From: Vulcanimicrobiota bacterium
Lineage (GTDB): Bacteria; Vulcanimicrobiota; Vulcanimicrobiia; Vulcanimicrobiales; Vulcanimicrobiaceae
DNA: 16,270 bases
Assembly (NCBI GenBank): GCA_003133025.1
Contig: PKZK01000230.1
Coordinates: forward strand, 1 to 16,270
Reading direction: 5' to 3'
Positions within the stretch are counted from its first letter, which is position 1; every line of letters starts with the position of its first letter. The notes under the pieces are model-generated. The model saw only the letters and a program-made list of their open reading frames with translations. It made no database searches and was not told the origin of the DNA. Of this stretch, positions 1-16,270 are shown piece after piece. The translations under genes were made by a program, and so were the position numbers.

Positions 1-1782
1 GCCCGAGTGGATGCCCATGTGCCTGGGAAAGCCGTCTATGCGACGGCAAAACGCCAACAGCAATTCGCCTAGTGCGCCGCCTACCGGGCCTCTTACGCTT
101 TCTGTTGCGTTGTCGCTCGGCTCGTTGTCGTGGGGTGCGAAGCCGTAATATGCCGGGCGTTTTCGGCCTTCCGGCTTGGGCTTTGCTGCTTGGGCCGCCT
201 GGGGTTGGGGGGCGTCGTTTGAGCGTGAGAAGCGGATGTTGCTGCCGGTGTCTAGGTCTCGGCGTTTGGCTACTGAGGCCGGCAGCGTCGCTTCGCTCGC
301 CGCGCCGCCGGCGGCGGTTGTTGCGGTGGCGTCTGGGGCTTTGGGTGGTGATGTGCCCGTTGCTCCGGCCAAAGATTCTCGCGCGTCGTATTCTTTGGAG
401 ACTGCGTCTACTTGGGCCAGGGATAGGCCTAGGGCTTTGCCTACGTCGCGTATTGCGGAGCGGGTGCGGTAGGTGATCACTTCGGCGGCCATGGCGGCGT
501 GTTCCCGACCGTAGCGGTCGTAGACGTACTGGATTACCTTTTCGCGGTCTTGGTGGGCGAAGTCGATGTCGATGTCGGGCACTTCGTTGCGTTCTTCCGA
601 CAAGAAGCGTTCGAAGAGCAGCTTCATGCCGATCGGGTCGACGGCGGTTATGCCGAGCGCGTAGCAGACTGCGGAGTTGGCGGCGGAGCCTCGGCCTTGG
701 GCGAGTACGCCGAGTTCTGCGGCTTTGTTCGAAATGTCCCAGACGACTAAGAAATAGCCGGCCAGATCCATTCTGGCGATGATGCCGAGTTCGTATTCGA
801 GTTGGCGTTCGACTTCGCGCTCTAAGGGGTGGCCGTAGCGCTCGCGCGCGCCCTTGAAGACCAGCGTGCGCAGGTGCGAGTGGCTGCTGTTTTCTTCGGG
901 CGGGATGGGGAAGTGCGGGAATTGGCCGGACAGTTTGTCGAGGCGGAAGGTGCAGCGTTCGGCGACGTGCAGCGTGTTGTGGATGGCTTTGGGATAGGGT
1001 GCGAAGATGCGGGCCATTTGGGCCGGGCTCTTCAGGTAGAATTCATGATTTGGTAAGAGCAGGGTGCCCGCGCGCTGCAGCGAGGTTTTGTATTTGACGC
1101 AGGTCAGCACGTCGCAGAGTTTCGCGTCTTCGGCGTGCGCGTAGGCGACGCCGTTGGTTGCGACGTACGGGATGCCGAGGTCGGCTGCGAGCGTAACTTG
1201 CATCAGCACGAGGCGCGCGTCTTCGGAGCGTAGATGCTGCTGCAGTTCCATGTAGAAACTGCCCGGAAAGCGATCGCGCAGGCGTGCGGCGCGTTCGCGC
1301 GCGGTCGCGTAGTCGTCGCGCAGCAGCGCTTCTTCGGCGTAGCCTCGACGCGAGGCGGAGAGGGCGATCAGTCCGCGCGCGTCACCGACGTCGTCGAGGT
1401 GCAGACGCGCGTCGCGTTTCTTGCCGCGCAGTTGCGCGTGCGAGATCGCGCGGGCGAGGTTGGCGTAGCCGGTTTCGTCTTCGGCGAGCAAAACGAGGCG
1501 CGGGAAGCGCGCGGATTCTTCGGGCGTGGGATCGCGCCGGCGCTTGGGACGCAGTTCCGGAGCGTCGAGCGTGAGTTCCGCGCCGACGATCGCGCCGAGG
1601 CGCAGCGGCTTCGCCGCCTTGGCGAAGCGCACCGTGCCGTAGAAGCCGTCGCGGTCGGTGAGGGCGACGGCCGCGAGGCCGAGTTCGGCCGCTCTTTCCG
1701 CCAGCTCCTCGGGATGCGAGGCGCCTTCGAGAAAGCTGAAGTTGGAGCGGCAGTGGAGTTCGGCGTACCGGGCGGCGGCCAT
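1..1782 (-). CDS. dnaE2: Error-prone DNA polymerase III alpha subunit DnaE2/ImuC, 5' part (594 codons; continues beyond the left edge)
   Basis: Manual translation from ATG 1782 is open to position 1: MAAARYAELHCRSNFSFLEGASHPEEL (PHP start typical of DnaE2), ALTDRDG, GYFLVVWDI, QGRGSAANSAVCYALGIT (GSAANS is the DnaE2-type motif), LLFERFL, PDIDIDF (catalytic Asp pair), FPRHMGIHSG. Preceded by a LexA box; imuAB nearby. Confidence 0.97.
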   Translation of the reverse strand, partial: MAAARYAELHCRSNFSFLEGASHPEELAERAAELGLAAVALTDRDGFYGTVRFAKAAKPLRLGAIVGAELTLDAPELRPKRRRDPTPEESARFPRLVLLAEDETGYANLARAISHAQLRGKKRDARLHLDDVGDARGLIALSASRRGYAEEALLRDDYATARERAARLRDRFPGSFYMELQQHLRSEDARLVLMQVTLAADLGIPYVATNGVAYAHAEDAKLCDVLTCVKYKTSLQRAGTLLLPNHEFYLKSPAQMARIFAPYPKAIHNTLHVAERCTFRLDKLSGQFPHFPIPPEENSSHSHLRTLVFKGARERYGHPLEREVERQLEYELGIIARMDLAGYFLVVWDISNKAAELGVLAQGRGSAANSAVCYALGITAVDPIGMKLLFERFLSEERNEVPDIDIDFAHQDREKVIQYVYDRYGREHAAMAAEVITYRTRSAIRDVGKALGLSLAQVDAVSKEYDARESLAGATGTSPPKAPDATATTAAGGAASEATLPASVAKRRDLDTGSNIRFSRSNDAPQPQAAQAAKPKPEGRKRPAYYGFAPHDNEPSDNATESVRGPVGGALGELLLAFCRRIDGFPRHMGIHSG

Positions 1783-1791
1783 GGGGCCACC

Positions 1792-1820
1792 ATGCTAATC
1801 GAACGTATGTTCGATGTCAA
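1792..1820 (-). promoter_or_regulatory. Sigma70-type promoter of dnaE2: TTGACA (1820-1815), 17 bp spacer, TAGCAT (1797-1792)
   Basis: Consensus -35, exact 17-bp spacer and a TAnnAT -10; only 9 nt separate the -10 from the ATG. Confidence 0.85.
1798..1815. promoter_or_regulatory. LexA SOS box ATCGAAC-GTAT-GTTCGAT
   Basis: Perfect 7-4-7 palindrome matching the GAAC-N4-GTTC (Gram-positive/actinobacterial TCGAAC-N4-GTTCGA) LexA operator, directly upstream of dnaE2. Confidence 0.93.
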
Positions 1821-2386
1821 GTAGCGCTGGGCGCGGGTGCCGGTGCTCCGGGTTTGGGCAGGAGCGAGATCGACTTGAGCGCCGCGTCGCGCACTTTGAC
1901 GGCGTCGTCGTGGAATTTGGAGACGCCGCCGGCGTTGGTGTTATGAACCGAGCCTTGACCGACGTTGACGTCGTTCGAACCGTAGGCGATCTGCGAGGGC
2001 GGACGCCAATCGATGATGTCTTGCGCGAGCTTCACCGAGCGTTCCAAGGCCGCGCGGGCCAGCCCCTCGTTACCCGCGAGATGCTGCCAACCGCCGAGGA
2101 CGTATTGATACTGTGCCGCGGACAGGTGGGCGTACTGCAAATTGTCGACGCTGTTGTTGGTCGCGTTTTCCGACGCACACAGATCGTAGGCGTCGATCAC
2201 TTTTTGGGCCAGTTCGACCGCGGTATCGAGCGTGGTCGCCGGATTCTTGGTCTTGTCGAAGTACTCGCGCACGGGCTTCGTCGCTTGCGTGCAAATCGGA
2301 TCGGAGAAGCCGGCCTCCGCTGCCGGGGCTTGCGTCGCGACGGCTCCCGTGCCGAGCATGAGAGCGAGCGCAAGAATGCGTTTCAT
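1817..2386 (-). CDS. Hypothetical secreted protein (189 aa, helical-looking, 2 Cys)
   Basis: Start moved to ATG 2386 (MKRILALALMLGTGAVATQAPAAEA, a Sec signal peptide with AxA site; AAGGG upstream). Natural protein composition and a Pro/Ala-rich tail. No family recognised. Confidence 0.8.
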   Translation of the reverse strand: MKRILALALMLGTGAVATQAPAAEAGFSDPICTQATKPVREYFDKTKNPATTLDTAVELAQKVIDAYDLCASENATNNSVDNLQYAHLSAAQYQYVLGGWQHLAGNEGLARAALERSVKLAQDIIDWRPPSQIAYGSNDVNVGQGSVHNTNAGGVSKFHDDAVKVRDAALKSISLLPKPGAPAPAPSAT

Positions 2387-2483
2387 AGCCCTTGCGCCTA
2401 CTGCATCGCCCGGCTCCGGCCCTTCCGCACCGTTTGGGGCGGGACGCGGAGGATAATCTTCGGCCGGCGGGCCAGCCTTACGA

Positions 2484-3458
2484 GTGAAGTATAGAAAACT
2501 CGGACGCTGGGGCGTCAAGGTCTCGACGGTCGGTCTCGGTTCGTGGTTGACCTACGGCGGCAGCGTCGAGGAAGCGACCGCGCGCGACTGCGTCAAGCGC
2601 GCGTACGAACGCGGCGTAACCTTCTTCGATACGGCCAACGTCTATGCGCGGGGCCGCGCCGAGGAAGTGATGGGCCGGGCGCTCGCGGCGTATCGCCGTG
2701 ACTCGTACGTCCTGGCCACCAAGGTCTATTTTCCGATGAACGACGGGCCCAACGACCGCGGGCTCTCGCGCAAGCACGTCTTCGAGCAGAGCCGTCTCTC
2801 GCTCAAGCGTCTCGGCGTGGACTACATCGATCTCTATCAGTGTCACCGCTACGACGTGCAGACGCCGCTCGAAGAGACCTGCGCCGTCATGAACGATTTG
2901 ATTCGGCGCGGCGACGTGCTGTATTGGGGCGTGTCGGAGTGGAATCCCGATCAGATCGCGGCGGCGGTCACGCTCTGTCGCGCACGCGGCTGGGCGGAGC
3001 CCGCGAGCAATCAGCCGCAGTACAGCGCGCTCTGGCGGAGGATCGAGGAACGCGTGTTGCCCGTGTGCGCGGAATACGGTTTGGGCAACGTCGTCTGGTC
3101 GCCGCTCGCGATGGGCATTCTCTCCGGTAAGTACGCCGATGCGGCCAATCCGCCGGCGGGCACGCGCGCCGCGGGCTCGGCCAAAGACATGATGAGCGAT
3201 TATTTCACCCAGCCGGTGCTCGACGCGGTGCAAAAACTCGAACCGCTGGCGCGCGAAGCAAACGCCTCGCTCGCGCAGTTGGCGTTGGCCTGGTGCCTGC
3301 GTCGCAGCGAGGTTTCGAGCGTGATCGTCGGCGCCACGAAGACGCAACACGTCGACGACAACGTCGCCGCCGCCGACCTCGAGGTCGACCCCTCGATCTT
3401 CGCGCGGATCGATGCGATCTTGGCGCCGGTCACGCCGCACGAGCCGTATCTGTCGTAG
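2484..3458 (+). CDS. Aldo/keto reductase (Kv-beta-like subgroup)
   Basis: MKYRKLGRWGVKVS, GLGSWLTYG, FDTANVY, LATKVYF, GLSRKH, IDLYQCHRYD, YWGVSEW, WSPLAMGILSGKY: AKR catalytic Asp/Tyr/Lys/His motifs present. Confidence 0.95.
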   Translation: MKYRKLGRWGVKVSTVGLGSWLTYGGSVEEATARDCVKRAYERGVTFFDTANVYARGRAEEVMGRALAAYRRDSYVLATKVYFPMNDGPNDRGLSRKHVFEQSRLSLKRLGVDYIDLYQCHRYDVQTPLEETCAVMNDLIRRGDVLYWGVSEWNPDQIAAAVTLCRARGWAEPASNQPQYSALWRRIEERVLPVCAEYGLGNVVWSPLAMGILSGKYADAANPPAGTRAAGSAKDMMSDYFTQPVLDAVQKLEPLAREANASLAQLALAWCLRRSEVSSVIVGATKTQHVDDNVAAADLEVDPSIFARIDAILAPVTPHEPYLS

Positions 3459-3466
3459 CCGCGCGA

Positions 3467-4267
3467 TTGTTGCTGCGCGCCGCGCGGTTGGAACGGCCGC
3501 AACGCGCGGAGGGTTATCCCTGGAGCGTTCCGTCCGTGCTCGGGCTGCAGCGGCTCGAATTCTCCTCGGCCGTCACGTTCTTCGTCGGCGAGAACGGTTG
3601 CGGCAAGTCGACGCTGCTCGAAGCGTTGGCGGTCGCGGCCGAAGGCGTCGCGCTCGGTGCCGCGGATTTAGACAACGATCCGACGTTGGCGGCGGCGCGC
3701 GCGCTGGCCGCGCACGTCACGTTGAGCTGGGGCACGCCGCGCCCGGTTACGCGACTGTTCGTGCGCGCCGAGGACGTGTTCGGTTTCGTCAAGCGCGTTG
3801 CCGGTGAGATGCAAGGCTTGGGCGACCTCGAGAGCGAGTTTTTATCGGACGAGCCGCCGCTGCCGGGCTCCGGACGGGCGCGGGCGGCGGGCTACATGGC
3901 CGGTCAACGGCGCGCACTCGCTCAGCGCTACGGCGCCGATCCCGATGCGCGCTCGCACGGCGAGACGTTCCTGGCCTTCTTGCAACAACGCATCGTGCCG
4001 CGCGGACTGTACTTTTTCGACGAACCCGAGACGCCGCTCTCGCCGACGCGCGTGCTGGCCCTGATCGCGTTGTTGCGCGACGCCGCGGCGGCGGGCAGTC
4101 AGTTCGTGATCGCGACGCACTCGCCGATCTTGATGGCCACGCCCGGCGCCGACATCCGGCTCGTCGAGGAGAGCGCCATCCGCAGCGTCGCGTTCGACGA
4201 AGTGGAGCACGTCCGCGTGACCCGCGATTTCCTCAACGCGCCCGAGCGCTATCTGCGGCAGTTGTAA
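3467..4267 (+). CDS. Predicted ATPase (ABC/AAA-type, COG3910-like)
   Basis: Walker A GENGCGKST, SHGE signature, Walker B LYFFDEPE, H-loop IATHSPILM. Start placed at TTG 3467 just after the AKR stop; the ORF-track extension from 3293 overlaps the AKR. Exact start uncertain. Confidence 0.88.
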   Translation: MLLRAARLERPQRAEGYPWSVPSVLGLQRLEFSSAVTFFVGENGCGKSTLLEALAVAAEGVALGAADLDNDPTLAAARALAAHVTLSWGTPRPVTRLFVRAEDVFGFVKRVAGEMQGLGDLESEFLSDEPPLPGSGRARAAGYMAGQRRALAQRYGADPDARSHGETFLAFLQQRIVPRGLYFFDEPETPLSPTRVLALIALLRDAAAAGSQFVIATHSPILMATPGADIRLVEESAIRSVAFDEVEHVRVTRDFLNAPERYLRQL

Positions 4268-4270
4268 AGT

Positions 4271-4329
4271 GGCGCGGCTGCGGGCGACGCCACGGTGCAC
4301 ATCACCGTGGAGAAACCTGCAGCCGCGCC
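4271..4329. other. Nested 59-nt inverted repeat between convergent genes (terminator-like or structured RNA)
   Basis: Outer arms 4271-4284 (ggcgcggctgcggg) and 4316-4329 (cctgcagccgcgcc), 14 bp with one G-U; 5x5 internal loop; inner perfect 8-bp stem ccacggtg/caccgtgg with a 5-nt loop. Confidence 0.7.
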
Positions 4330-4358
4330 TCAGTGAGAACGCCCGCTAAAGAGGCGAA

Positions 4359-5240
4359 CTACGGGTCGAGCGTGCCGATCAGTTGCGCGGCCGAGGCGGT
4401 GTCGACGGCGAAGATCGAGAGGTGCGCGCCGGCGGGGATTGCCGAGCTGGTGTCGGCCGCGAGCGCCTGCTGTTGCGTGGTCGGATTCTTCAAACCGGAG
4501 GCCAACTGCGACGGCGTCGCGTTGATCAGCACGGAGAAGTTGCCGCTGCCGATGGACGGTCCGGCGGCGAAGCCGATCGCCGTGGGCAGACCGTTCGGTA
4601 ACGGCGAGAGGAAGTACTCGCCGCCTGCGACGTTGCCGCTGGTCGCGGGTCCGCTGATCGGGCTGGTCAACGAGAACGTGAAGAGCGTGGGCAGCAGCGT
4701 GGGAACCGGCTGCGCCGCATTGTAGACGCCGACCGCGACCGGCGCGTTGAGCGCACCCTGCACGAAGGGCGAGGCGTGATGCACGAGCAGCGCCGTCGTT
4801 CCGGCGGTCTCGGCCGACTCGACGAAGTTGATGAACTGCAGCGAGTTGTTGGCCAGCTTGCCGCCCACCACGATGCTGTACTGCGTGCTCGACGAGACGG
4901 TCACGCTTTCCGAAGCGACCGGCGTGGTGGTGCTGGGCGAACCGGCCGGTGCGATCACGTCGACCGTGTAGGTGCCCGGCGGAATGCTCAGATAGCTGGT
5001 GATCTGCGGGTAGGCGGCCGCGCCGACGGTGGGCGAGGTGGGCCGCGTCTTGCTGCTCTTGTAGACGTAGATGTCGACCGGGCCGGCGTCGGGCGAACCG
5101 TGAATGGCTCGCACCTGCGCGGGAGTCGGCGTCGGACCGACGCTCGGCGTCGAGCTGGAATTACACGCGGCGAGCGCGAGCGAGAACGCTGCGGCGCCTG
5201 CAAGCGCAAGCCCGCGCATCAGCGTACGGTATGATTTCAA
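4359..5240 (-). CDS. DUF4397-like lipoprotein, paralog 2
   Basis: TTG start at 5240 with AAGGAG 6 nt upstream; lipobox LAAC; Ser/Thr/Pro linker; VRAIHGSPDAGPVDIYV is a DUF4397-type motif, with a second LLVHHASP repeat. Confidence 0.85.
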   Translation of the reverse strand: MKSYRTLMRGLALAGAAAFSLALAACNSSSTPSVGPTPTPAQVRAIHGSPDAGPVDIYVYKSSKTRPTSPTVGAAAYPQITSYLSIPPGTYTVDVIAPAGSPSTTTPVASESVTVSSSTQYSIVVGGKLANNSLQFINFVESAETAGTTALLVHHASPFVQGALNAPVAVGVYNAAQPVPTLLPTLFTFSLTSPISGPATSGNVAGGEYFLSPLPNGLPTAIGFAAGPSIGSGNFSVLINATPSQLASGLKNPTTQQQALAADTSSAIPAGAHLSIFAVDTASAAQLIGTLDP

Positions 5241-5361
5241 GCGGAGCTCCTTCAAGTGTGGGCGCCAGGTGGGCGCTTCCGGGAGCTATACGGGGCCGTG
5301 TCGCTTCTGGACGCCGGGGGCGTCGAAGGGGCCGGGCGCCGCACACGCCCGGCAGTCCGGC

Positions 5362-6252
5362 CTATGGGTCGAGCGTGCCGATGAGTTGGGCGCTCGGAAT
5401 CGTATCGACGGCGAATACCGAGAGGTGCGCGCCGGCCGCGATGGTCGAGCCCGTGTCCCCCGCCAGCGTCAGTTGCGCCGAGGTCGGATTCTTCAAGCCC
5501 GTCGCGAGTTGTGACACCGGGGCGTAGATCAGCACCGAGAGGTTGCCGCTACCGGCAGGCGTGCCCGCAGCGAAGCCGACCGCGTTGGGCAACGCGCCGG
5601 CTTGCAGCGGCGAGAGGTAGAACTCTGCGCCGCTCACCGTGCCCGTGGCGGCGGGTCCGCTGGTACCGCTCGCGAGCGAAAACGAGAAGATCTGCGGAAC
5701 GAGCGCCGGGATGGGCTGCGACGCATCGTAGGCTCCGATGGCGACCGGAGCATTGAGGGCATTCTGGACGTACGGTGACGCATGGTGCACGAGCAACGCC
5801 GTTTGGCCCGAGACTTCCGCCGGCTCGACGAAGTTCACGAAGCGCAGCGTGCCGGCTCCGACTTTACCGCCGACGACGACGCTGTATTGCGTGTTCGACG
5901 AAACGTTGATGCTTTCGGAAGCAACGGGCGTGGCCGTACTCGGCGAACCGGCCGGTGCGATGACGTCGATGGTGTACGTGCCCGAGGAGATGCTGAGGTA
6001 GTTCGTGATCTGCGGGTACGCGGCGTTCGCAACGGTCGGCGACGTGGGCCGCGACTTGCCGCCGGGGTACACGTAGATGTCGACCGGACCGGCGTCGGGC
6101 GAGCCGTGAACGGCGCGCACTTGCGCGAATCCGCTGTTAGAGGGCGAACTCGTGCTCGGCGTCGAGCTGGAAGAACATGCGCTCAATGCGAGCGCGTACG
6201 CCGCGGCGCTAACGAGTGCGAAACGGCGTACGATTGGACGGACAGAGGGCAA
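5362..6252 (-). CDS. DUF4397-like lipoprotein, paralog 1
   Basis: TTG start at 6252 with AAGGAG 7 nt upstream; lipobox LSAC; VRAVHGSPDAGPVDIYV; colinear with the neighbour and sharing the C-terminus SAQLIGTLDP. Confidence 0.85.
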   Translation of the reverse strand: MPSVRPIVRRFALVSAAAYALALSACSSSSTPSTSSPSNSGFAQVRAVHGSPDAGPVDIYVYPGGKSRPTSPTVANAAYPQITNYLSISSGTYTIDVIAPAGSPSTATPVASESINVSSNTQYSVVVGGKVGAGTLRFVNFVEPAEVSGQTALLVHHASPYVQNALNAPVAIGAYDASQPIPALVPQIFSFSLASGTSGPAATGTVSGAEFYLSPLQAGALPNAVGFAAGTPAGSGNLSVLIYAPVSQLATGLKNPTSAQLTLAGDTGSTIAAGAHLSVFAVDTIPSAQLIGTLDP

Positions 6253-6270
6253 GGGTAAACTCCTTCGTTA

Positions 6271-6299
6271 TGTGGCGAGCGCCGATGGCGCTTGCCACA
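6271..6299. other. 13-bp hairpin just upstream of the lipoprotein RBS
   Basis: tgtggcgagcgcc-gat-ggcgcttgccaca, 12/13 Watson-Crick pairs; no U-tract, so function unclear. Confidence 0.5.
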
Positions 6300-6348
6300 C
6301 GCATACCGCGCACGGAGCGTACCGCCTTGCTTCCGGCGCTGGAAATTT

Positions 6349-7167
6349 TTACCCGAGCGCGCCCATGGCGAGTGCAGCCCACATTCCGCTGCCGAGCAGA
6401 TTCTGTCCGCCGTCGGCCACGAGGACCGTGCCCGTCACATACGACGCGAGCGGCGAAGCGAGAAAGACCGCCACGCGTCCGATGTCGTCGACGCTTCCCA
6501 GGCGTTGCAACGGAACCGCGCGCGCCAGTTTACCTTGGGCTCCCTCGCCCGGCGCTAAACGGCGCATGCCTTCGGTGTCGGCGATCGGTCCGGGCACGAT
6601 GCTGTTGCAGCGGATGCCGTGCTTGCCCCAATCGACGGCCAGGTCGCGCATCAACATGTCGACGCCGGCTTTGGCCGCGCCGACGTGCGCTTGATACGGA
6701 TACGCTTGAAAGGCTTGACCCGCCGAGATGAAGGTGATGCTGCCGCGCGTCTCCTTCAATTGTGGAAAGGCCGCGCGCGCCGCGTGGAACGAGCCGAGCA
6801 CGTCGATATCGAGCACCGACTTGAAACCGTTGGGCGTGATTGCTTCGGCCGAAGCGGGAAAGTTGCCGGCCGCACCGGCGATCAACACGCCGATCGTTCC
6901 GAGCGTCTGGCCCGCGTTCGTAATCGCCGCTTCGAGTGCGGCGTAATCGCGCACGTCGGCCGCTTGGGCGAAAACGGGATTACCGATTTCGCGTAATTCG
7001 GCGGCGGCGCCGTCGAGACGTTCTTGCGAACGTCCGCAGATCGCCACGCTCGCTCCGACCGCCGCGAAATTTTTAGCGATGCCCAGGTTGATGCCGCTGC
7101 CGCCGCCGGTGATGAACACGGTCGTGCCGCGGAAAAGGTCTTTGGAAAAGACGTCGGTGATCTGCAT
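6349..7167 (-). CDS. Short-chain dehydrogenase/reductase, peroxisomal-type 2,4-dienoyl-CoA reductase-like
   Basis: Start ATG 7167 (MQITDVFSKDLF); TGGGSGIN Rossmann motif, GAAGNF, QAHVGAAKAGVD, IRCNSIVPGPI, YVTGTVLVADGG. Confidence 0.9.
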   Translation of the reverse strand: MQITDVFSKDLFRGTTVFITGGGSGINLGIAKNFAAVGASVAICGRSQERLDGAAAELREIGNPVFAQAADVRDYAALEAAITNAGQTLGTIGVLIAGAAGNFPASAEAITPNGFKSVLDIDVLGSFHAARAAFPQLKETRGSITFISAGQAFQAYPYQAHVGAAKAGVDMLMRDLAVDWGKHGIRCNSIVPGPIADTEGMRRLAPGEGAQGKLARAVPLQRLGSVDDIGRVAVFLASPLASYVTGTVLVADGGQNLLGSGMWAALAMGALG

Positions 7168-7224
7168 ACGGGCTACCGTTGCGTTCGTAACCCGGGCGTT
7201 CCTCGAAGGGCTTATCCGCAAGGC

Positions 7225-8712
7225 TCAATCGTAGGCGCCGCGCACGTACCAGCGTTGCGCTTCGGTAACGATGCGCCAGAGCGTACCGTCGTCGAGCAGC
7301 ACGTCGTAGGCATCGCTGGCATAGGGCAACGCGCCCTCGTCGAGGGCTTGCGCCCACCACGATTCGTCGACGCGCCACGGTCCGGCGAGTTCCACGATCT
7401 TGCGGCCCCCGACGGCCACGGGCCGGCCGCGTTCGACGCGCACGCCGATCTCGCGCGGTGCGAGCACGCGATAAGCCAGCGTGCCTTCGGACGCGGACGT
7501 TTGCGCGGCGCCGGCGTGCGGCGCGCGACGCACGAGCCCGCGCGCGTCGAATGCTTCGTAGGCATAGCGCGTCTCGCGCCGATGCCCCGAGGTCACGCGC
7601 GCCCGCAACGCCGAGCCCGGGCCGAGCGCGGCCTCGATGCGCGCCAGCGCCACCGCCACCGTTTCGGGATCGGGGTCGCTGCCCGCAAAGAGCGAACGTT
7701 CCGCGCCGCCTTCTTCCAGCCGTTCGGCGCCCAAGCGCAGACCGCTCACCGGTGCGGCCAACACGATGCCTTCCAAACGCGCGCGCAGGAGATCGAACAT
7801 CGTCGCGGCTTGCGCCGTCGGTTGCGCGAGCAGCGTGGGCACGTCGTGCGTCGTGCCGTCTTCGCATTCGAGCGTCAAGCGCAAGTAACCGCACCGCTTG
7901 CCCGCGAGCGCCACGTCGTCGGCAACGCGCGCCACCAGCGTGCGCAAGGCGAAGAGCACCTGTTCTTCGCGCTCCGCCGTGCCTTCGCCGAAGAGCGATC
8001 GTTCCACGCGCAGCGCCCGCGCGCGCGGCACGAGCGGTTCGGGATCGATGCCGCCGGCGCGATCGTGGGCGCGCGCCGCGGCCGGTCCGAAGCGGCGCAC
8101 GAACGGTCCGTGCGGCAGCGCGGCGAGTTCGCCCAGCGTGCGCACGCCGAGCAACTGCAAACGTTCGATCGCGTAGGCTTCGAGATCCAGCACGCGTAGC
8201 GGCAGCGGTGCGACGAAGGCGCGCTCGCTGCCGCGCCGCACGATCGTGCCGTCGCGCGACGAGGCCGCCGCGCGCGCGACGAATTTGCCCGCGGCCAGGC
8301 CCAAGCGAAAGGGCAGCGCGCCCGCCGCAACCGCGTTGAGCGCGCCGCGCACGCTCGCCAGCCAAACGCGCGGCGTGCCTTCGATGCCGCGCATCTCGAG
8401 AAAGGCGATGCCGGGCTCGGCATCTTCGACCAAGGGCGACGCGGCGTCGAGTGCGTCGAGGATCTCTTCCCAGAGCGCGAGGCCGCGCGCGGGTTCGTCG
8501 ACGACGATCGCCGCTTCGCGCGCGCACGCACTCGCTTGAACCAGCGTCATGCCCGGACGCACGCCGAGTTCGTAGGCGGCGTCGTCGACGGCCAGCGCGT
8601 GTCCGCGTTCGAGCCGGTCGACGACGACCAGCGGCCGCTCGCGCAATTCCGGCTGCGTGAAGCGCGCGACCTCGACCTTGAATGCCGGCACCAGCGCGCA
8701 GACGATCGGCAC
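7225..8712 (-). CDS. imuB: ImuB, catalytically inactive Y-family polymerase homolog (495 aa)
   Basis: GTG 8712 lies 2 nt after the imuA stop. GVRPGMTLVQASA, LGVRTLGELAALP and the C-terminal GPWRVDESWW...WYVRGAYD are typical of ImuB; the Y-family catalytic acidic motifs are degenerate (CALVPAF; EDAEPGIAFLE). Confidence 0.92.
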   Translation of the reverse strand: MPIVCALVPAFKVEVARFTQPELRERPLVVVDRLERGHALAVDDAAYELGVRPGMTLVQASACAREAAIVVDEPARGLALWEEILDALDAASPLVEDAEPGIAFLEMRGIEGTPRVWLASVRGALNAVAAGALPFRLGLAAGKFVARAAASSRDGTIVRRGSERAFVAPLPLRVLDLEAYAIERLQLLGVRTLGELAALPHGPFVRRFGPAAARAHDRAGGIDPEPLVPRARALRVERSLFGEGTAEREEQVLFALRTLVARVADDVALAGKRCGYLRLTLECEDGTTHDVPTLLAQPTAQAATMFDLLRARLEGIVLAAPVSGLRLGAERLEEGGAERSLFAGSDPDPETVAVALARIEAALGPGSALRARVTSGHRRETRYAYEAFDARGLVRRAPHAGAAQTSASEGTLAYRVLAPREIGVRVERGRPVAVGGRKIVELAGPWRVDESWWAQALDEGALPYASDAYDVLLDDGTLWRIVTEAQRWYVRGAYD

Positions 8713-8714
8713 CG

Positions 8715-9437
8715 TTACGCGCCGGCAGCCACGCGACAGAAGAGTTCCGCGCTGCGCCCGGGCGAAGCGCGTTTGTGCTTGAGGACCGTCGCTTCGAGTT
8801 CGGCGCCCGCCAGCGCGCAGAAGAGTCCGCTGACGCCCGACCAGCGCACGCGGCGCGGACGCAGGCGCACGCGCAGCGAGGCGAAGTAGCGCAGCTCGTC
8901 GGAGGCCTCCGTGCCCAGCGCCAGCAGCACCGCGTTGGAACGGTGCGCGAGCCCGGCCAGCCGCGTCCAGGCGACGGCGGGCAGGCTGACCGCCGGAATG
9001 ACCACGAGCCCGAAGGCGCCCGCGCGCAGCAGTACGTCGGCGGCCCGGGCGGCGCTCACCGCATCGTGCGCGGGCACGACCAGCAGCCGCTCGAGATTCA
9101 CCCCGGCGGCCGCGAGCGAGGGCGGGTAGAGGCAACCTTCCGAACCCCGGGGCGACTCGATCAGCGCGCCCAGGCCGCCCCCGAGGGTGGCGCCGGCCAG
9201 CAGCCGGGCGGCCAGCGCCGACCTGCCCGAGCCCGAAGGGCCTTCGAGGGTGGCGATGATGCCCCGCGGCACGCCCCCGCCCAGGGCCGCATCCAGAGCC
9301 GGGAAGCCCGTGCGCAGCACGGCCTCTTCGGCCAGGGTGAAGGCTGCGGGCGCGGCCTCCGCGTGGGCATTCGCCAGCGTCGCGCGAAGCTCGGCGAAGG
9401 CGTCCCGGCGGGGTTGCGTCGCGGCCGTCAGAGGCAT
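8715..9437 (-). CDS. imuA: ImuA, RecA-like mutasome accessory protein (240 aa)
   Basis: LRTGFPALDAALGGGVPRG resembles the RecA core; degenerate Walker A GPSGSGRS; LYPPSLAAAGVNLERLLVV is typical of ImuA; directly upstream of imuB and under a LexA box. Confidence 0.9.
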   Translation of the reverse strand: MPLTAATQPRRDAFAELRATLANAHAEAAPAAFTLAEEAVLRTGFPALDAALGGGVPRGIIATLEGPSGSGRSALAARLLAGATLGGGLGALIESPRGSEGCLYPPSLAAAGVNLERLLVVPAHDAVSAARAADVLLRAGAFGLVVIPAVSLPAVAWTRLAGLAHRSNAVLLALGTEASDELRYFASLRVRLRPRRVRWSGVSGLFCALAGAELEATVLKHKRASPGRSAELFCRVAAGA

Positions 9438-9445
9438 GGGAGGTC

Positions 9446-9474
9446 ATGGTAATCGAACGTATGTTCGATGTAAA
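9446..9474 (-). promoter_or_regulatory. Sigma70-type promoter of imuAB: TTTACA (9474-9469), 17 bp spacer, TACCAT (9451-9446)
   Basis: Same geometry as the dnaE2 promoter; 8 nt between the -10 and the imuA ATG. Confidence 0.8.
9452..9469. promoter_or_regulatory. LexA SOS box ATCGAAC-GTAT-GTTCGAT (second copy)
   Basis: Identical to 1798-1815, including the 4-bp spacer; upstream of imuA. Confidence 0.93.
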
Positions 9475-10018
9475 GGGGCCGAAGGTCCGGCCCGTCGAGC
9501 CCGGCGACGCTCCCGCGATCGCCTGCCTCTACGCGCCCATCGTCGAGACGACGACGATCTCGTTCGAAGAAATCGCGCCCGATGCCGCCGAGATCGCGCG
9601 GCGGATCGAGGCCGTCACGCGCACGCATCCGTGGCTCGTCGCCGACGACGCGGGCAGCCTCGCGGGCTACGCCTATGCCACGAAGTACCGAGAGCGGGCC
9701 GCCTACCGTTGGGCGGTCGACACGAGCGTTTACGTCGACGAACGCTACCGGCGCCGCGGCATCGGCCGCCTCCTCTACGCCGAGTTGTTCGCGACCTTAC
9801 GCCGGCTGGGTTATCTGCGGGCTTTCGCCGGCGTGGCGCTGCCCAACGCCGGGAGCGAAGCGCTGCACGAAGCGGTGGGCTTTCGCGAGGTGGGCACCTA
9901 CCGCGCCGTCGGCTTCAAGTTCGGCCGCTGGCACGACGTGCGCTGGTACGGCCTCACGCTCGGCGAAAGCGCGACGCCCGCGGAGCCCGTGCCGTTCGGC
10001 TCAGCGCGCTTTGAGTGA
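9461..10018 (+). CDS. GNAT N-acetyltransferase, phosphinothricin/arsinothricin (Pat/YncA/ArsN1)-like
   Basis: TTISFEEIAP, AYRWAVDTSVYV, RRRGIG acetyl-CoA motif, VALPNAGSEALHEAVGF, VGFKFGRWHDV. Start uncertain (ATG 9446 or 9461). Confidence 0.88.
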   Translation: MFDVKGPKVRPVEPGDAPAIACLYAPIVETTTISFEEIAPDAAEIARRIEAVTRTHPWLVADDAGSLAGYAYATKYRERAAYRWAVDTSVYVDERYRRRGIGRLLYAELFATLRRLGYLRAFAGVALPNAGSEALHEAVGFREVGTYRAVGFKFGRWHDVRWYGLTLGESATPAEPVPFGSARFE

Positions 10019-11398
10019 CATGCGGCGCTGCTGCTCGGGCGTGTCGTAGCGCAGCAAACTCATCGGATGCAACGGCAGCAGCAACGGCGGCCGCGGCGTC
10101 TGGTTGAAGTTGAAGTCGTTGGCCAAGTCGCCGTACTGGGATTCCGCATCGCGATAGTCGGGACGCGGATCGGGCCGTCCCGATTGGCTCATCCGTTCGC
10201 CGTTCAAGAAGACGTCTTCGATGAATTTGAGATAGCAGTCGGTGCTGCAGATCTGGTGATCGATGTAACCCGGGATGGCGTAGGGGCTCACGATCCAGGC
10301 CGGCACGCGGATGCCCAAGCCTTGCGAGTCGAAACTGTACGGCGGCGGTTCGTGATCGTAGAAGCCGCCGTCGTCGTCGTAGGTCACGAAGATCGCGCTG
10401 CTATTCCAATCCGGTCCGCTCATCACCGCGTTGATCAAGCCGGTCACGTACGTTTCGCCGTGCGCGACCGATGAGGTTGGATGTTCGCTGTCGGCTTGTT
10501 GGGGCAAGACCCAACTCACCGCGGGCAACGTGCCGTTGGCCGCATCGGTGTAGAACTGGGTCAAGTTGATCAGAGCGTTGCCCAACTGACCGTCGTCTTG
10601 AACGGTCTCGAAACCGGGCAAGACGTTCCAGATGCCCATCACGCCGTGATGCGTGAACGTGGCGCCTTGGCCGCCGTCGAGATAGGCCGCCCAGGTCACG
10701 TTGTTCTGATAGAGCAAATAGGTGATGTCGGTCCACTGATACGGCGTCGGATCCTTCGTGTTCCAGACATCGCCGCCGAACGAACTCGTGCAACTGTCCA
10801 CGTCGTTGGGTTTCAGACACTTCGCGGCCCACGCCGAAAAGAGAAAGAGATGGGCCGGCTGGCTCCAGGAGTGGCTGGCTTCGTAGAATTGATCCTGGAG
10901 CACGTAGTTGCTCGCGTAGGCCCAATAGTTGGGCAGATCGGTGCCGTCGTGATAGCCCATCACGTCGACGATGTCGCCCTTGCTGCCCGGTTTGCAATCG
11001 GGATCGACGCCGACCTCGATATCCGACGGGCAGCCGCCGCGGGCTAATTGCTTCTCGCGCTGGACGACGAAGCCGTCCATCTTCCCGCCGTCGATATCGG
11101 CTTCTTGGTATTCGTCGAGATACGGACCGCCCTCGTTGCTCGCTTCGTGATTGGGGTAGGGCGTGAAGCATTCGCTGGGATGGCGGATGCTCGGCAAACA
11201 CGGCAAGGGGCTCGGGAAGCCGTCGGCGCCGGGAAACGTGCCGAAGTAGTGATCGAACGAGCGATTTTCCTGAACGATGAAGATCACGTGCTGGATCGTT
11301 TGCAGCCCGGCGGCCGGCACCGCGCGCGGTGCGGCCAGGAGCGCCGGCGCGCAGGCGAAGAAGCCGGCGGCAATGCCGAGCCGCGTGCGCGCGTTCAC
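10001..11398 (-). CDS. Secreted phosphoesterase (phospholipase C/acid phosphatase family), paralog A, 465 aa
   Basis: GTG 11398 in a GTGA overlap with the upstream stop, GGAGG RBS; signal-like N-terminus; IQHVIFIVQENRSFDHYFG, SEHP, TYDDDGGFYDHEPPP, GIRVP. The 3' end overlaps the convergent GNAT by 18 bp. Confidence 0.92.
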   Translation of the reverse strand: MNARTRLGIAAGFFACAPALLAAPRAVPAAGLQTIQHVIFIVQENRSFDHYFGTFPGADGFPSPLPCLPSIRHPSECFTPYPNHEASNEGGPYLDEYQEADIDGGKMDGFVVQREKQLARGGCPSDIEVGVDPDCKPGSKGDIVDVMGYHDGTDLPNYWAYASNYVLQDQFYEASHSWSQPAHLFLFSAWAAKCLKPNDVDSCTSSFGGDVWNTKDPTPYQWTDITYLLYQNNVTWAAYLDGGQGATFTHHGVMGIWNVLPGFETVQDDGQLGNALINLTQFYTDAANGTLPAVSWVLPQQADSEHPTSSVAHGETYVTGLINAVMSGPDWNSSAIFVTYDDDGGFYDHEPPPYSFDSQGLGIRVPAWIVSPYAIPGYIDHQICSTDCYLKFIEDVFLNGERMSQSGRPDPRPDYRDAESQYGDLANDFNFNQTPRPPLLLPLHPMSLLRYDTPEQQRRMSLKAR

Positions 11399-12813
11399 GG
11401 GGCCTCCGAGCGCAGCAAGGTCATCGGGTGCGTCGAGAGCACGAGCGGCGGACGCGGCGCCTTCGAGAAGTCGAAATCCGCCGCGAGGGTTCCGTACGCG
11501 GGTTGCGCGTCGCGGTAGTCGGGGCGTGGGTCGGGCCGGCCGGATTCGCTCATGCGCTCGCCTTTCAAGAACACGTCTTCGATGAACTTCAAATAGCAGT
11601 CGGTGCTGCAGGCTTGATGATCGACGTAGCCCTTTTTCGCATACGGGCTGACGATCATCGCCGGCACGCGTATGCCCAGGCCCAAACTGTCGAAGTCGAA
11701 CGGCGGCACTTGGTGATCGTAGAAGCCGCCCATGTCGTCGTAGGTGATGAAGATGGCGCTGCTCTCCCAGTCCGGCCCGTTCATCACCGCATCGATCAAG
11801 CCGGTCACGTAGCTCTGGCCTTGCTTGATCGAGGCTTGGGGGTGCTCGGCATCGACGTACTTGGGCAACAGCCACGTCACTTGCGGTAAGGTGCCGTCGG
11901 CCGCATCGGAATAAAACTGCGTCTGGTCGTACTCGGCGTTGGCCACCTGACCGTCCTGGTTGACGGTTTCGAAGCCGGGCAGCACGTCCCAGATCCAGGC
12001 CGAGCCGTTCTGTCCCTGCGGCTTGCCGGCCAAGCCGCCGTCGAGGTAGACGCGCCAACTGACGCCGTGCTGCCAAAGCAGATACGTGATGTCGGTCCAG
12101 AGATACGGCGACGGCGCGGTCGGACTCCAGCCCAGTCCGCCGGGCGAGGTCGAGCACGAATCGACGTTGGGCGGATTGAGGTCTTTACAGATCGCCGACC
12201 AGCCCGAGAAGAGTTCGAGGTGTCCCACCAGGCTCCACGACATCGCCGATTCGTGAAAATGATCCTGGAGCACGAAGTTCTGCGCATACGCCCAGTAGTT
12301 GGGCAGATCGGTGCCGTCGTGATAGCCCATCACGTCGACCAGACAGTGCACGTTTTGGATGAAGCCCTCGTCGTCGATCATCGTCGTTCCGCTGCGTTCG
12401 CGCGGCGCGCGTCCGCGTTGCGGCGCACACTTCGAGCCCAACTGCTGCTCGCGGCTGATCACGAAGCCGTCCATCTTGCCGTTGTCGATGTCTTGCGTTT
12501 GATAGGTGATCAGCAACGGCCCGCCCTCGTTGCTGTCGCGATGGTTGGGATAGGGCGTGAAGCATTGGCTCGGATACCAATGGCTGGGCAAGCACGGCGC
12601 TTGCGTGGGGATGCCGTCGGCGCCGGGGTACGTGCCGAAATAGTGATCGAACGAGCGGTTCTCTTGCACGATGAAGATCAGGTGTTTGAGCTTGTACAGC
12701 CCGCGGCTCGCTCCGCTGTCTTCCGCCGCGCGGCCGCCGCTCGGCGCGAGGCCCGCGTAGAGCGCGCCCACGGCGATGCACGCGAGCGCGAGCAGAGGGA
12801 GGCGGCGAAGCAC
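11395..12813 (-). CDS. Secreted phosphoesterase, paralog B (about 472 aa)
   Basis: GTG 12813 (alternative 12822) with GAGGT upstream; signal peptide LRRLPLLALACIAVGALYA; QENRSFDHYFG, AEHP, TYDDMGGFYDHQ, GIRVP. Confidence 0.92.
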   Translation of the reverse strand: MLRRLPLLALACIAVGALYAGLAPSGGRAAEDSGASRGLYKLKHLIFIVQENRSFDHYFGTYPGADGIPTQAPCLPSHWYPSQCFTPYPNHRDSNEGGPLLITYQTQDIDNGKMDGFVISREQQLGSKCAPQRGRAPRERSGTTMIDDEGFIQNVHCLVDVMGYHDGTDLPNYWAYAQNFVLQDHFHESAMSWSLVGHLELFSGWSAICKDLNPPNVDSCSTSPGGLGWSPTAPSPYLWTDITYLLWQHGVSWRVYLDGGLAGKPQGQNGSAWIWDVLPGFETVNQDGQVANAEYDQTQFYSDAADGTLPQVTWLLPKYVDAEHPQASIKQGQSYVTGLIDAVMNGPDWESSAIFITYDDMGGFYDHQVPPFDFDSLGLGIRVPAMIVSPYAKKGYVDHQACSTDCYLKFIEDVFLKGERMSESGRPDPRPDYRDAQPAYGTLAADFDFSKAPRPPLVLSTHPMTLLRSEAP

Positions 12814-12827
12814 GACGCGCACCTCGG

Positions 12828-13412
12828 CTATGTGGCTCGACGAGCCGCGATGATCTCCGCGCGGCGAAAACACGTCGAGCGATGGTCGTTGAGGATGCCG
12901 CAGGCTTGCAAGAACGATTGCACGATCGTCGAGCCGGTGAAGGTGAAGCCGCGTGCGCGCAGATCGGCGCTCACCGCGTCGGAGAGCGGCGTCGTCGCCG
13001 GAAGCGGCGTCTTGGTACCGTATCTGCCGTCGCGCGGACGCCCGGCGACGAACGCCCACAGGTACGCGGCAAAGGAGCCGTGCGTGCGCGCGACCTCGAG
13101 CAACGCGCTTGCGTTTTTCAGCGTCGAGAGAATCTTTCCGCGATGGCGCACGATGCCCGGATCGCTGACCGCGGCCTCGACGGCATCCGCGTCGAGCGCG
13201 GCGACGGCCCGCGGATCGAAATTCCGAAACACGCGCCGGTACCCCTCACGCTTGCGCAAGATCGTCACCCAGCTCAGCCCGGCTTGCGCGCCCTCCAATG
13301 TGAGCAATTCGAAGAGCGCCCGATCGTCATGAACGGGCACTCCCCACTCGGTATCGTGGTACGTCGTCAGCGGCTCTGCGAGCGCCCACGCGCAGCGCGC
13401 TCGTGGCGCGAT
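12828..13412 (-). CDS. tag: DNA-3-methyladenine glycosylase I (194 aa if initiated at ATC 13412)
   Basis: In-frame extension upstream of the listed ORF gives RCAW...YHDTEWGVPVHDDRALFELLTLEGAQAGLSW...IVRHRGKI...GILNDHRSTCF; all four Zn ligands (C, H, H, C) present. The start is non-canonical (see findings). Confidence 0.9.
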   Translation of the reverse strand: MAPRARCAWALAEPLTTYHDTEWGVPVHDDRALFELLTLEGAQAGLSWVTILRKREGYRRVFRNFDPRAVAALDADAVEAAVSDPGIVRHRGKILSTLKNASALLEVARTHGSFAAYLWAFVAGRPRDGRYGTKTPLPATTPLSDAVSADLRARGFTFTGSTIVQSFLQACGILNDHRSTCFRRAEIIAARRAT

Positions 13413-14911: not shown

Positions 14912-15026
14912 GATCTTCTCCGAGCCCTGTCCCCGGGGAGGGACGGGCGGGCTACTGCCTGGGCCTATGTACCACAATGCGCCCGCACCCGCCGTCGGCA
15001 CCTGCCGGTTCGACTGGAAAATCGGC

Positions 15027-16270
15027 CTAACGGGGGCTCCCGCCCTCCACCAGCAGCGACATGGGGTGGGTCGAGAGAATCAGCGGCGGCCGCGCCGGCT
15101 GATTGAAATCGAAGTCGTCGAGAATGTTGCCCAACTGGGTCGACTCGTCGCGGCAATCCGGCCGCGGATCGGAGCGGCCGGTTTGGCAGATGCTCTCGCC
15201 GCCGGCGAACGTGTCTTCGACGAGCTTGAGGAACGAGTCGCTGGTCAGGATCTGATGGTCGATCGTTCCCGCGACGGCGTAGGGACTGATCAGGAGGGCG
15301 GGCACGCGCAGGCCCGGTCCGTCGGCGTCGAGCTTGAACGGCGGCGGCTCGTGGTCGTAGAAGCCGCCCATGTCGTCCCACACGACGACGATCGCCGAGC
15401 TGCTCCAATCGGGTCCGCCCTCGACGGCGTTGACCACGCTGGTCACGAACGCTTGCCCCTTGGCCACCGATGCTTGCGGGTGGTCGCTATCTTCGTAGTT
15501 GGGAATCACCCACGAGACCTGGGGTAGCGTGCCCGCTGCCGCCTGGCTCTCGAAATCGGCGACGGTGGAACCGACGGCGTTTGCGTACTGGCCGTCGTCG
15601 TTGACCGTCTCGAAGCCGCCGAGCGGAATCCAGATGCCTTGCACCTTATTCGAGGGCGCTCCGATGGCGCTGCCCAGGCCACCGTCGAGATAGGCCGACC
15701 ACGTGATGCCGTTCTGGTAGAGCAGATAGGTGATGTCGGTCCAGAGGTACGGGATTTTGCCCGGCACCCATTGCTTGCCGTTGAGATTGCTCGAACAACT
15801 GCCGATCTCGGGCGGATCGATCTTCGTGCACTGCGCCGACCATCCCGAGAAGAGCGCCAGATGCGAGGGCAGGCTCCACGATTCGGCCGACTCGTAGAGG
15901 TGATCGAAAAGCACGTAGTTCTTGGCGTAGGCCCAGTAGTTCGGCAGGTCGGTACCGTCGTGATACCCCATGACGTCGACGATGCAGTGATCGTTGACGC
16001 GTACGCCCTCGTCGTCCATGGGCGCGGCGACGATGCGCCGGGGATCGACGCGCCCGTTCTTCGGCGCGCATTGCGGCCCCAGGGCCTGCTCGCGCTGGAT
16101 CACGTAGCCGTCCATCTTGCCGCCGTCGATGTCGGCGACCTGATACTTGTTCACGTACGGTCCGCCGAAATTCGAGGCTGCGTGATTGGGATACGGCGTG
16201 AAGCATTGGCTCGGATACCACTTGCTGGGCAGACACGGTGCGGCGCTCGGGATGCCGTCGGCGCCGGGGT
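15027..16270 (-). CDS. Phosphoesterase, paralog D (5' end beyond the right edge)
   Basis: Frame continues to the edge as PGADGIPSAAPCLPSKWYPSQCFTPYPNH; DVMGYHDGTDLPNYWAYA, SDHP, VWDDMGGFYDHEPPP, GLRVP. Confidence 0.92.
   Translation of the reverse strand, partial: PGADGIPSAAPCLPSKWYPSQCFTPYPNHAASNFGGPYVNKYQVADIDGGKMDGYVIQREQALGPQCAPKNGRVDPRRIVAAPMDDEGVRVNDHCIVDVMGYHDGTDLPNYWAYAKNYVLFDHLYESAESWSLPSHLALFSGWSAQCTKIDPPEIGSCSSNLNGKQWVPGKIPYLWTDITYLLYQNGITWSAYLDGGLGSAIGAPSNKVQGIWIPLGGFETVNDDGQYANAVGSTVADFESQAAAGTLPQVSWVIPNYEDSDHPQASVAKGQAFVTSVVNAVEGGPDWSSSAIVVVWDDMGGFYDHEPPPFKLDADGPGLRVPALLISPYAVAGTIDHQILTSDSFLKLVEDTFAGGESICQTGRSDPRPDCRDESTQLGNILDDFDFNQPARPPLILSTHPMSLLVEGGSPR

What the first reader, a model, noticed from the sequence alone, without database searches (positions are those of the whole stretch)
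1..9474. Split mutasome: imuAB and dnaE2 separated by six unrelated genes, each half with its own copy of the same SOS promoter
Seen: imuA-imuB and dnaE2 are on the same strand in canonical order but about 5.4 kb apart, with two opposite-strand genes in between. Their upstream regions match over 30 bp with 2 mismatches (catgctaatcgaacgtatgttcgatgtcaa 1791-1820; catggtaatcgaacgtatgttcgatgtaaa 9445-9474). 22 bp are identical, including the normally variable N4 spacer. Known: imuA-imuB-dnaE2 is commonly one LexA-regulated operon, though split arrangements exist (e.g. mycobacteria). Inference: an ancestral operon was interrupted and co-regulation was kept by duplicating the promoter/operator, or this motif is a strict lineage-wide SOS promoter design.
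Basis: partly seen in the sequence, partly recalled or inferred. Interest (0 to 1): 0.7.

Follow-up and report, generated by a model that had tools for sequence, protein, structure and literature searches.

The report
Split mutasome, twin LexA promoters
The error-prone DNA-polymerase genes of this soil bacterium sit in two blocks 5.4 kb apart, each behind a nearly identical promoter that is likely switched off by the LexA repressor, and the match reflects a promoter design shared across the whole bacterial class rather than a fresh copy, so this is a known arrangement in a new lineage.

Summary
In detail: 28/30 identity, 22 bp unbroken, six genes between. Read on the gene strand, the 30 bp are a complete promoter: -35 (TTGACA/TTTACA), the SOS-type box TCGAAC-N4-GTTCGA in the spacer, then -10, with ATG 8-9 nt on (predicted leaderless). 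Relatives are Vulcanimicrobiota.

The match needs no recent duplication. The design precedes imuA in 80 of 81 loci across the class; promoters of other genera match the G000 copies at 29-30/30; the spacer is not free (146 of 156 are RYRY); 20 of the 22 bp recur at an HNH gene; flanks share nothing.

The split is old (44 of 45 rows of one clade) and recurrent: dnaE2 has its own promoter in 34/34 loci over 1.2 kb from imuB and 0/38 contiguous ones. Parsimony gives about four gains, and imuB gained one repeatedly. An ancient copy of the imuA promoter stays plausible. Split cassettes with separate boxes are known (M. tuberculosis), and this scan reported them on other DNA. Side result, also noted earlier by the scan: a second, likely WYL-activated promoter class at recA.

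The parts
1..1782 (-). dnaE2 (error-prone Pol III alpha), N-terminal 594 aa; runs off the contig; C-terminal part on contig C180
   Evidence: best NCBIfam hit PRK05672 error-prone polymerase E 8e-150 (below whole-protein cut-off because truncated); PHP + NTPase domains; C180
1783..1820 (-). dnaE2 promoter: -35 TTGACA 1815-1820, SOS-type box 1799-1814, -10 TAGCAT 1792-1797, 9 nt ending CCCC before the ATG; the TGA in the -35 is also the stop codon of the upstream gene
   Evidence: same design before dnaE2 in 44 of 45 clade rows
1817..2386 (-). 189-aa protein, no Pfam/NCBIfam family, with a signal-peptide-like N-terminus (by eye); homologues at the same place in several close relatives
2484..3458 (+). 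aldo-keto reductase; the conserved core of the insert (orthologue inside the fetched cassette region in 30 of 45 clade rows)
   Evidence: PF00248
3467..4267 (+). AAA_21-type ATPase (start approximate); found at this locus only in G000
4271..4329 (.). hairpin between the convergent ATPase and DUF4397 genes; candidate terminator (inferred)
   Evidence: inverted repeat I13; not scored as an intrinsic terminator
4359..5219 (-). DUF4397 protein, paralogue 1; at this locus only in G000
5362..6252 (-). DUF4397 protein, paralogue 2 (71% alike at DNA level over 300 nt)
6349..7167 (-). SDR oxidoreductase, 57 bp after imuB, possibly co-transcribed with imuAB; orthologue in the cassette region of 9 genomes of one subclade
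   Evidence: PRK07576 above cut-off
7225..8712 (-). imuB: Y-family homologue lacking the catalytic acidic residues, with C-terminal extension
   Evidence: IMS + IMS_C; alignment to Pol IV 7yll shows D to P and DE to PG at the two catalytic motifs
8715..9437 (-). imuA / imuA'-like RecA homologue
   Evidence: NF033429 E 1e-17, below cut-off; RecA PF00154
9438..9474 (-). imuA-imuB promoter: -35 TTTACA 9469-9474, SOS-type box 9453-9468, -10 TACCAT 9446-9451, 8 nt ending CCC before the ATG
   Evidence: same design at 80 of 81 imuA loci

Best explanation
This is a split imuA-imuB / dnaE2 cassette in which each half has its own sigma-70-type promoter with a LexA-type operator filling the space between -35 and -10, so LexA would likely block both promoters until DNA damage triggers its cleavage, and both halves are predicted to start leaderless messages at the ATG. 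Shown: gene identities, the -35/box/-10 anatomy, its conservation across the class, the age and recurrence of the split, one intact lexA with two near-consensus boxes of its own. Inferred: LexA binding, repression by blocking polymerase, induction, transcription start at the ATG, and that the plus-strand genes and hairpin in the insert stop read-through from the imuA promoter, which makes the second promoter necessary. The 28/30 identity arises because nearly all 30 positions are functional and the spacer is biased, not because the copy is young. The split dates to the ancestor of a large clade of the family, with the aldo-keto reductase as the conserved insert; the other insert genes came later.
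For: The only two sigma-70-like promoters in 1700-10100 are these copies (shuffle mean 0.5); both mismatches fall inside the hexamers. Box equals the M. tuberculosis consensus TCGAAC(N4)GTTCGA (PMC3381160). Perfect boxes: 9 in G000, control pattern 0; present in 60 of 61 genomes. In G000 they precede ftsY-recA, a ribonucleotide reductase and two HNH-like genes; a looser box precedes an AlkB-like gene. Single lexA over cut-off, with Ala-Gly, Ser and Lys aligned to E. coli LexA, and two boxes (1 mismatch each) in its divergent promoter. Design at 80 of 81 imuA loci (the exception has an NN gap there). dnaE2 has its own promoter in 34 of 34 loci with gap >1200 nt, 2 of 6 at 600-1200, 0 of 19 at <=600 and 0 of 19 in the outgroup families. 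Spacer RYRY in 146 of 156. 7 and 17 of 158 foreign promoters match the two G000 copies at >=28/30; G006 (intact operon, ImuB 47%) matches both at 29/30. No within-genome flank similarity. An unrelated RNase H-like gene has the same -35/box/-10 design in 15 genomes.
Against: No binding, induction or start-site data; RNA runs were uninformative. 28/30 is in the tail: only 2 of 38 genomes reach it within genome and 81 of 4636 cross-genome pairs. Within-genome spacer agreement exceeds permutation even inside the big clade (p about 0.005; 9 of 18 one-per-genus identical, p 0.001); GC content explains only part (rho 0.39). 8-9 nt from -10 to ATG is longer than the 6 nt peak of other leaderless-like genes in G000. 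The 45-row clade has SH-aLRT 90, not starred, on a gene tree.
Confidence: 0.82

Rival explanations
1. Origin by ancient copying: at each split the downstream gene received a copy of the imuA promoter including its start context (for example tandem duplication of the cassette followed by reciprocal loss). This is compatible with the best explanation and concerns origin only.
For: The 8-9 nt discriminator ending CCC directly before ATG is found at imuA (66 of 72), dnaE2 (34 of 43) and imuB (11 of 19) but at 0 of 15 RNase H-like gene promoters and 4 of 42 leaderless-like genes of G000, one being imuA. Genus g32 shares a shifted box register at imuA and dnaE2. In G004 and G091 the imuB promoter keeps a CC(C/A)ATG at the imuA position although imuB starts about 80 nt later. 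A 46-bp design arising de novo about nine times is demanding.
Against: No imuA stump or flank similarity in any genome (36-38 imuA/dnaE2 pairs). CCC-A survives where the ATG is lost in the outgroup family, so it may be selected as a start-site context. Shared register in g32 may follow a trans-acting change.
Confidence: 0.5
2. Recent duplication or ongoing gene conversion between the two promoters in this genome or its genus.
For: 28/30 with identical spacer, reached by 2 of 38 genomes; significant within-genome spacer agreement.
Against: dnaE2 promoter is orthologous across 44 of 45 clade rows; G078 dnaE2 matches the G000 dnaE2 copy at 30/30 and G036 and G006 imuA match the imuA copy at 29/30; discriminators differ (GACCTCCC vs GGTGGCCCC); whole 30-mer excess vanishes without g32 (p 0.32); in G014 a third, unrelated promoter has the same spacer as both cassette promoters.
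Confidence: 0.08
3. The palindrome is bound by a regulator other than LexA.
For: No binding data; recA carries a different palindrome right at its own promoter.
Against: Box equals a validated LexA consensus, flanks lexA itself, lies within 1.5 kb upstream of recA in 28 of 30 loci, and persists in G002 and G069, which lack the WYL candidate.
Confidence: 0.05
4. The split is an assembly artefact caused by the repeated 30-mer.
For: Logan contigs break at 1791/1819.
Against: The same gene order, with the reductase inside, occurs in independent genomes including single-contig G004 and G023; two other assemblies cover all 30 bins with long 99% pieces.
Confidence: 0.01

Closest known systems
Split imuA'-imuB / dnaE2 cassette of Mycobacterium tuberculosis (Rv3395c-Rv3394c and Rv3370c)
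   Same: Two transcription units, each with a LexA site of the same consensus TCGAAC(N4)GTTCGA; both are ChIP peaks (PMC3381160 Table 1 passage; called 'split' in PMC10421592).
   Different: In M. tuberculosis the Rv3395c start site lies within the box, 7 bp upstream of the start codon, and imuA'B is also under PafBC (PMC8682763). Here the box fills the -35/-10 spacer and no WYL-type palindrome was seen at either promoter. The split here arose separately from a contiguous ancestor in the class.
imuABC cassette configurations surveyed by Erill et al. 2006 (not held; read through the review PMC3901139)
   Same: The review states that almost all configurations exist, including each gene at its own locus with its own SOS box; G004, G091, G063, G089, G113, G127 and G180 show three promoters.
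   Different: Vulcanimicrobiota are not found with LexA in the searches run; here several independent splits can be placed on one tree.
DriD / DdaA / PafBC WYL activators (for the side finding at recA)
   Same: Palindrome where -35 would be, fixed distance to -10, targets recA, ssb, helicases; PafBC motif tGTCgg(N10)tA(N3)T has the same N10 spacing.
   Different: Motif RTGCCA-N6-TGGCAY differs from those three; it does not lie at the mutasome promoters.

Membership tests
ImuA-ImuB-DnaE2 mutasome cassette | RecA-like ImuA/ImuA' directly upstream of imuB | tested here: met
   NF033429 E 1e-17 (below cut-off, so divergent) and PF00154; 2 bp from imuB
ImuA-ImuB-DnaE2 mutasome cassette | ImuB: Y-family fold without catalytic acidic residues | tested here: met
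   IMS/IMS_C; catalytic motifs replaced in alignment to Pol IV
ImuA-ImuB-DnaE2 mutasome cassette | Second, non-replicative DnaE (DnaE2) besides DnaE1 | tested here: met
   PRK05672 best hit; separate dnaE1 on C52/C117; orthologues follow imuB directly in relatives
ImuA-ImuB-DnaE2 mutasome cassette | Full-length intact DnaE2 | tested here: inconclusive
   residues about 578-857 fall between contigs C214 and C180
ImuA-ImuB-DnaE2 mutasome cassette | Damage-induced mutagenesis | not testable with these tools
   needs a cultured strain
LexA regulon, GAAC-N4-GTTC (Gram-positive/actinobacterial) type | Operator matches the consensus and overlaps promoter elements | tested here: met
   0 mismatches; between -35 and -10
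LexA regulon, GAAC-N4-GTTC (Gram-positive/actinobacterial) type | Intact lexA with boxes at its own promoter and upstream of recA | tested here: met
   box precedes ftsY-recA rather than recA itself in most genomes
LexA regulon, GAAC-N4-GTTC (Gram-positive/actinobacterial) type | LexA binding and RecA-dependent induction | not testable with these tools
   no experimental data
Recently duplicated promoter | Similarity beyond functional positions, higher within genome than between genomes | tested here: not met
   flanks and discriminator show no excess; spacer shows a modest excess
Leaderless promoter | Transcription start at the ATG | tested here: inconclusive
   geometry fits and no Shine-Dalgarno room; only contigs were available, which cannot show starts

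The most novel reading that the evidence does not exclude
Vulcanimicrobiota repeatedly break their mutasome operon and each time re-deploy one complete 46-bp module (-35, LexA operator, -10, CCC-ATG leaderless start) copied from imuA: about four times in front of dnaE2 and several times in front of imuB. That would make the class a replicated natural experiment on how operon fission keeps co-regulation, by promoter copying rather than de novo operator gain, and the odd 8-9 nt CCC start could be a mutasome-specific dosage control.
Probability: 0.4. Interest if true: 0.5.

Novelty: new member of a known kind. Interest (0 to 1): 0.3.

Why it matters
It gives the SOS box and core regulon of a phylum for which the searches found no LexA paper, and shows that split mutasome cassettes arise repeatedly from an intact operon while always keeping a promoter. 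It is also a caution: near-identical promoters in one genome can come from constraint alone. The arrangement itself is textbook, so the surprise is modest.

Tried and rejected
Recent duplication: tested by flank alignment (no excess), foreign-promoter matches and permutation; rejected except for a modest spacer signal. Single origin of the dnaE2 promoter: AU test on 63 of 96 rows rejects one clade (p 7e-5); the group was defined by the trait but after I had seen the tree, and it is an ImuB+DnaE2 gene tree under LG+G4. Eight rows were left out of the tree for low coverage. Expression: two RNA runs (identical tables, probably one data set filed twice) have short exact pieces on imuA, imuB and dnaE2 and none on the insert, but the control stretch 10000-16270 is covered alike, so nothing follows. 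Terminator scan: 8 sites vs 6.4 expected, uninformative. Genome-wide leaderless test was crude (first ATG of long ORFs). WYL autoregulation: half-site upstream of the WYL gene in 10 of 28 loci vs 8 of 224 background windows, six of the ten from one genus, not convincing. Erill 2006 was not held. No supplements were read; the supplementary tables of the cassette surveys could list this phylum. No structure or complex prediction was run.
Full report
Observation. The two stretches match at 28 of 30 positions with a 22-bp identical run and no similarity outside. The palindrome TCGAAC-N4-GTTCGA occurs twice in the window, against 0.10 expected; 0 of 200 shuffles reach two. imuA, imuB and dnaE2 are on the minus strand with six genes (two on plus) in a 5.44-kb gap. 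The window starts at the end of contig C214; the C-terminal part of dnaE2 is on C180. The closest ImuB relatives are titled Vulcanimicrobiota/Eremiobacterota.

Anatomy. On the gene strand each 30-mer is -35 hexamer, 16-bp operator, one T, -10 hexamer, one G: TTGACA/TAGCAT for dnaE2 and TTTACA/TACCAT for imuA, 17-nt spacers. They are the only sigma-70-like promoters in 1700-10100. Both mismatches lie in the hexamers. The ATG follows after 9 and 8 nt ending in CCC, leaving no room for a ribosome-binding site, so leaderless messages are predicted. ImuB lacks the catalytic acids of Pol IV. G000 has one lexA with intact cleavage and catalytic residues and two one-mismatch boxes in its promoter region. 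Nine perfect boxes exist in the genome (control pattern 0), upstream of ftsY-recA, a ribonucleotide reductase, two HNH-like genes and an RNase H-like gene among others. The box equals the M. tuberculosis consensus (PMC3381160, passages).

Is the match more than design? The same design precedes imuA in 80 of 81 loci with upstream DNA, over three families. Spacers are RYRY in 146 of 156 parsed promoters; ATAT, ATAC and GTAT dominate. Of 158 promoters from other genomes, 7 match the G000 imuA copy and 17 the dnaE2 copy at 28/30 or better, including 30/30 for G078 dnaE2 and 29/30 to both for G006, whose operon is intact. Twenty of the 22 identical bases recur at an HNH gene on C63. An unrelated RNase H-like gene uses -35/box/-10 in 15 genomes. 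Flanks show no within-genome excess. Against this: 28/30 is reached by only 2 of 38 genomes and 81 of 4636 cross-genome pairs; the whole-30-mer excess (p 0.002) disappears without genus g32 (p 0.32), but spacer agreement stays (p about 0.005). It correlates with GC (rho 0.39, p 0.015), and G014 uses one spacer at three promoters, which suggests genome-wide bias. Kin are not independent, so these p-values overstate.

Age and recurrence. I searched 60 relatives and 150 family genomes and fetched mainly split cases from the second set, so the counts are not frequencies. dnaE2 has its own promoter in 34 of 34 loci more than 1200 nt from imuB, 2 of 6 at 600-1200, 0 of 19 at 600 or less and 0 of 19 in outgroup families. 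On an ImuB+DnaE2 tree of 96 rows, G000 lies in a 45-row clade (SH-aLRT 90) of which 44 have the second promoter; the reductase orthologue is in the fetched region of 30 of them and the SDR in 9; the ATPase and DUF4397 pair are G000-only. Parsimony needs 5 changes for the dnaE2 promoter (four gains and a loss in G080, with the contiguous outgroups as root) and 6 for an imuB promoter (20 of 96 rows). One clade for all dnaE2-promoter rows is rejected (63 rows, p-AU 7e-5; caveats under Tried and rejected). These cassette counts use no genome flagged unpublished; the tallies and the recA counts include some (G018, G020 and others).

Mechanism. LexA bound in the spacer would block polymerase at both promoters; damage-activated RecA would trigger cleavage and induce both halves together. 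Plus-strand genes and a hairpin at 4271-4329 would stop read-through, so dnaE2 needs its own promoter. All of this is inferred from anatomy and established LexA biology. How the second promoter arose is open. The 8-9 nt CCC-ATG end is shared by imuA (66/72), dnaE2 (34/43) and imuB (11/19) but not by the RNase H-like gene (0/15) and is rare genome-wide (4/42), which favours old copying; the lack of any stump leaves constraint equally possible.

Known context. M. tuberculosis has imuA'B and dnaE2 as separate LexA-bound units (PMC3381160 passages incl. Table 1 rows; PMC10421592 passages). The review PMC3901139 (passages) says nearly all configurations occur, each part with its own box. PMC6511836 (passages) was read for ImuB features. 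Searches for Eremiobacterota or Vulcanimicrobi with LexA gave 0 papers; two searches listed none on this system (listings only). The scan has reported split cassettes with twin promoters in other phyla.

Side finding. A palindrome RTGCCA-N6-TGGCAY, 10 nt before a -10 and without -35, precedes recA in 28 of 30 loci (26 of 28 without unpublished genomes), 9 of 10 more and 0 of 9 in the outgroup family f3; other targets include ssb, UvrD-type helicases, RmuC and an exonuclease. One WYL-WCX orthologue is in 147 of 151 family genomes, not found in G002 and G069, the two that lack the recA palindrome, nor at orthologue level in f3; G020 and G032 have the motif without a found orthologue (fragmented assemblies). 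The strict pattern misses 10 of 151 genomes, eight of which have the WYL gene and a 1-2 mismatch site at recA. The geometry equals PafBC's N10 spacing (PMC8635444, passages) and resembles DriD and DdaA (passages). I found this independently; the scan had noted it twice before.

Verdict. Real, well supported, ordinary in kind; new for the phylum. Interest 0.3.

Noticed in passing
G000:C21:4997, C38:16330, C59:2753, C165:928, C169:2991, C192:3223, C192:7232; WYL gene G000:C94:530-1525 (L222): Second damage-type promoter class: RTGCCA-N6-TGGCAY, N10, -10, often 6 nt to ATG, at recA, ssb, helicases and an exonuclease; co-occurs with one conserved WYL-WCX protein (not found in G002, G069 and family f3, which also lack the recA site). 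Likely a DriD/DdaA/PafBC-type activator. In G014 one version is repeated about 17 times, probably on a mobile element.
   Followed up: yes
G000:C17 (L004:2094-2525 minus) and orthologues L264-L283: A conserved 140-aa protein with no Pfam hit sits behind a -35/SOS box/-10 promoter in 15 genomes across the class; nearest named Atlas clusters are RNase H-like (RVT_3, score 0.91, a lead only). Candidate lineage-specific SOS gene.
   Followed up: partly
window 9446-10018 (+): ArsN1b-like GNAT acetyltransferase (above NCBIfam cut-off) whose only possible ATG starts (9446, 9461) lie inside the -10 and the operator of the imuA promoter on the opposite strand; its own promoter would lie within imuA.
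   Followed up: partly
window 1817-1819: The stop codon of the upstream gene is the TGA of the dnaE2 -35 hexamer.
   Followed up: no
L095, L097, L109, L184, L185 (G012, G007, G003, G061, G115): A 160-aa ORF with a GIY-YIG-like look (by eye, family recalled, not tested) lies in frame-strand between imuB and dnaE2 without a new promoter: a possible fourth operon member.
   Followed up: no
L080, L138, L145, L161, L141 (G010, G078 and kin): About 1 kb same-strand insert between imuA and imuB, with an esterase/PHB-depolymerase-like look in G010 (recalled, not tested), and no second promoter.
   Followed up: no
G000:C63:7847 and 8511 (L006): Two tandem HNH-like genes next to tRNA-like sequence, each with a perfect SOS box whose last base is the A of the start codon.
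   Followed up: partly
window 10001-16270 (-): Four tandem phosphoesterase-family (PF04185) paralogues, 62-80% alike, interrupted by a 3-methyladenine glycosylase (tag) gene at 12828-13340 that has no SOS box.
   Followed up: partly
window 1-400: DnaE2 carries a roughly 100-aa low-complexity insert after residue 470, in DNA with lower GC and strong skew.
   Followed up: no
G000:C21:5778-5783 (L157 near 2193): recA looks shortened by about 55 residues, but the join is an NN scaffold gap: assembly artefact.
   Followed up: yes
G033 (C61 and C23): Two split cassettes in one assembly (4% contamination), either a real duplicate or a bin mixture; relevant to the duplication-and-loss route.
   Followed up: no
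G069 (L356), genus g50 (L344-L348, L354), G004, G016, G023: The SOS box sits directly before recA (100-180 nt) instead of about 1 kb upstream before ftsY.
   Followed up: no
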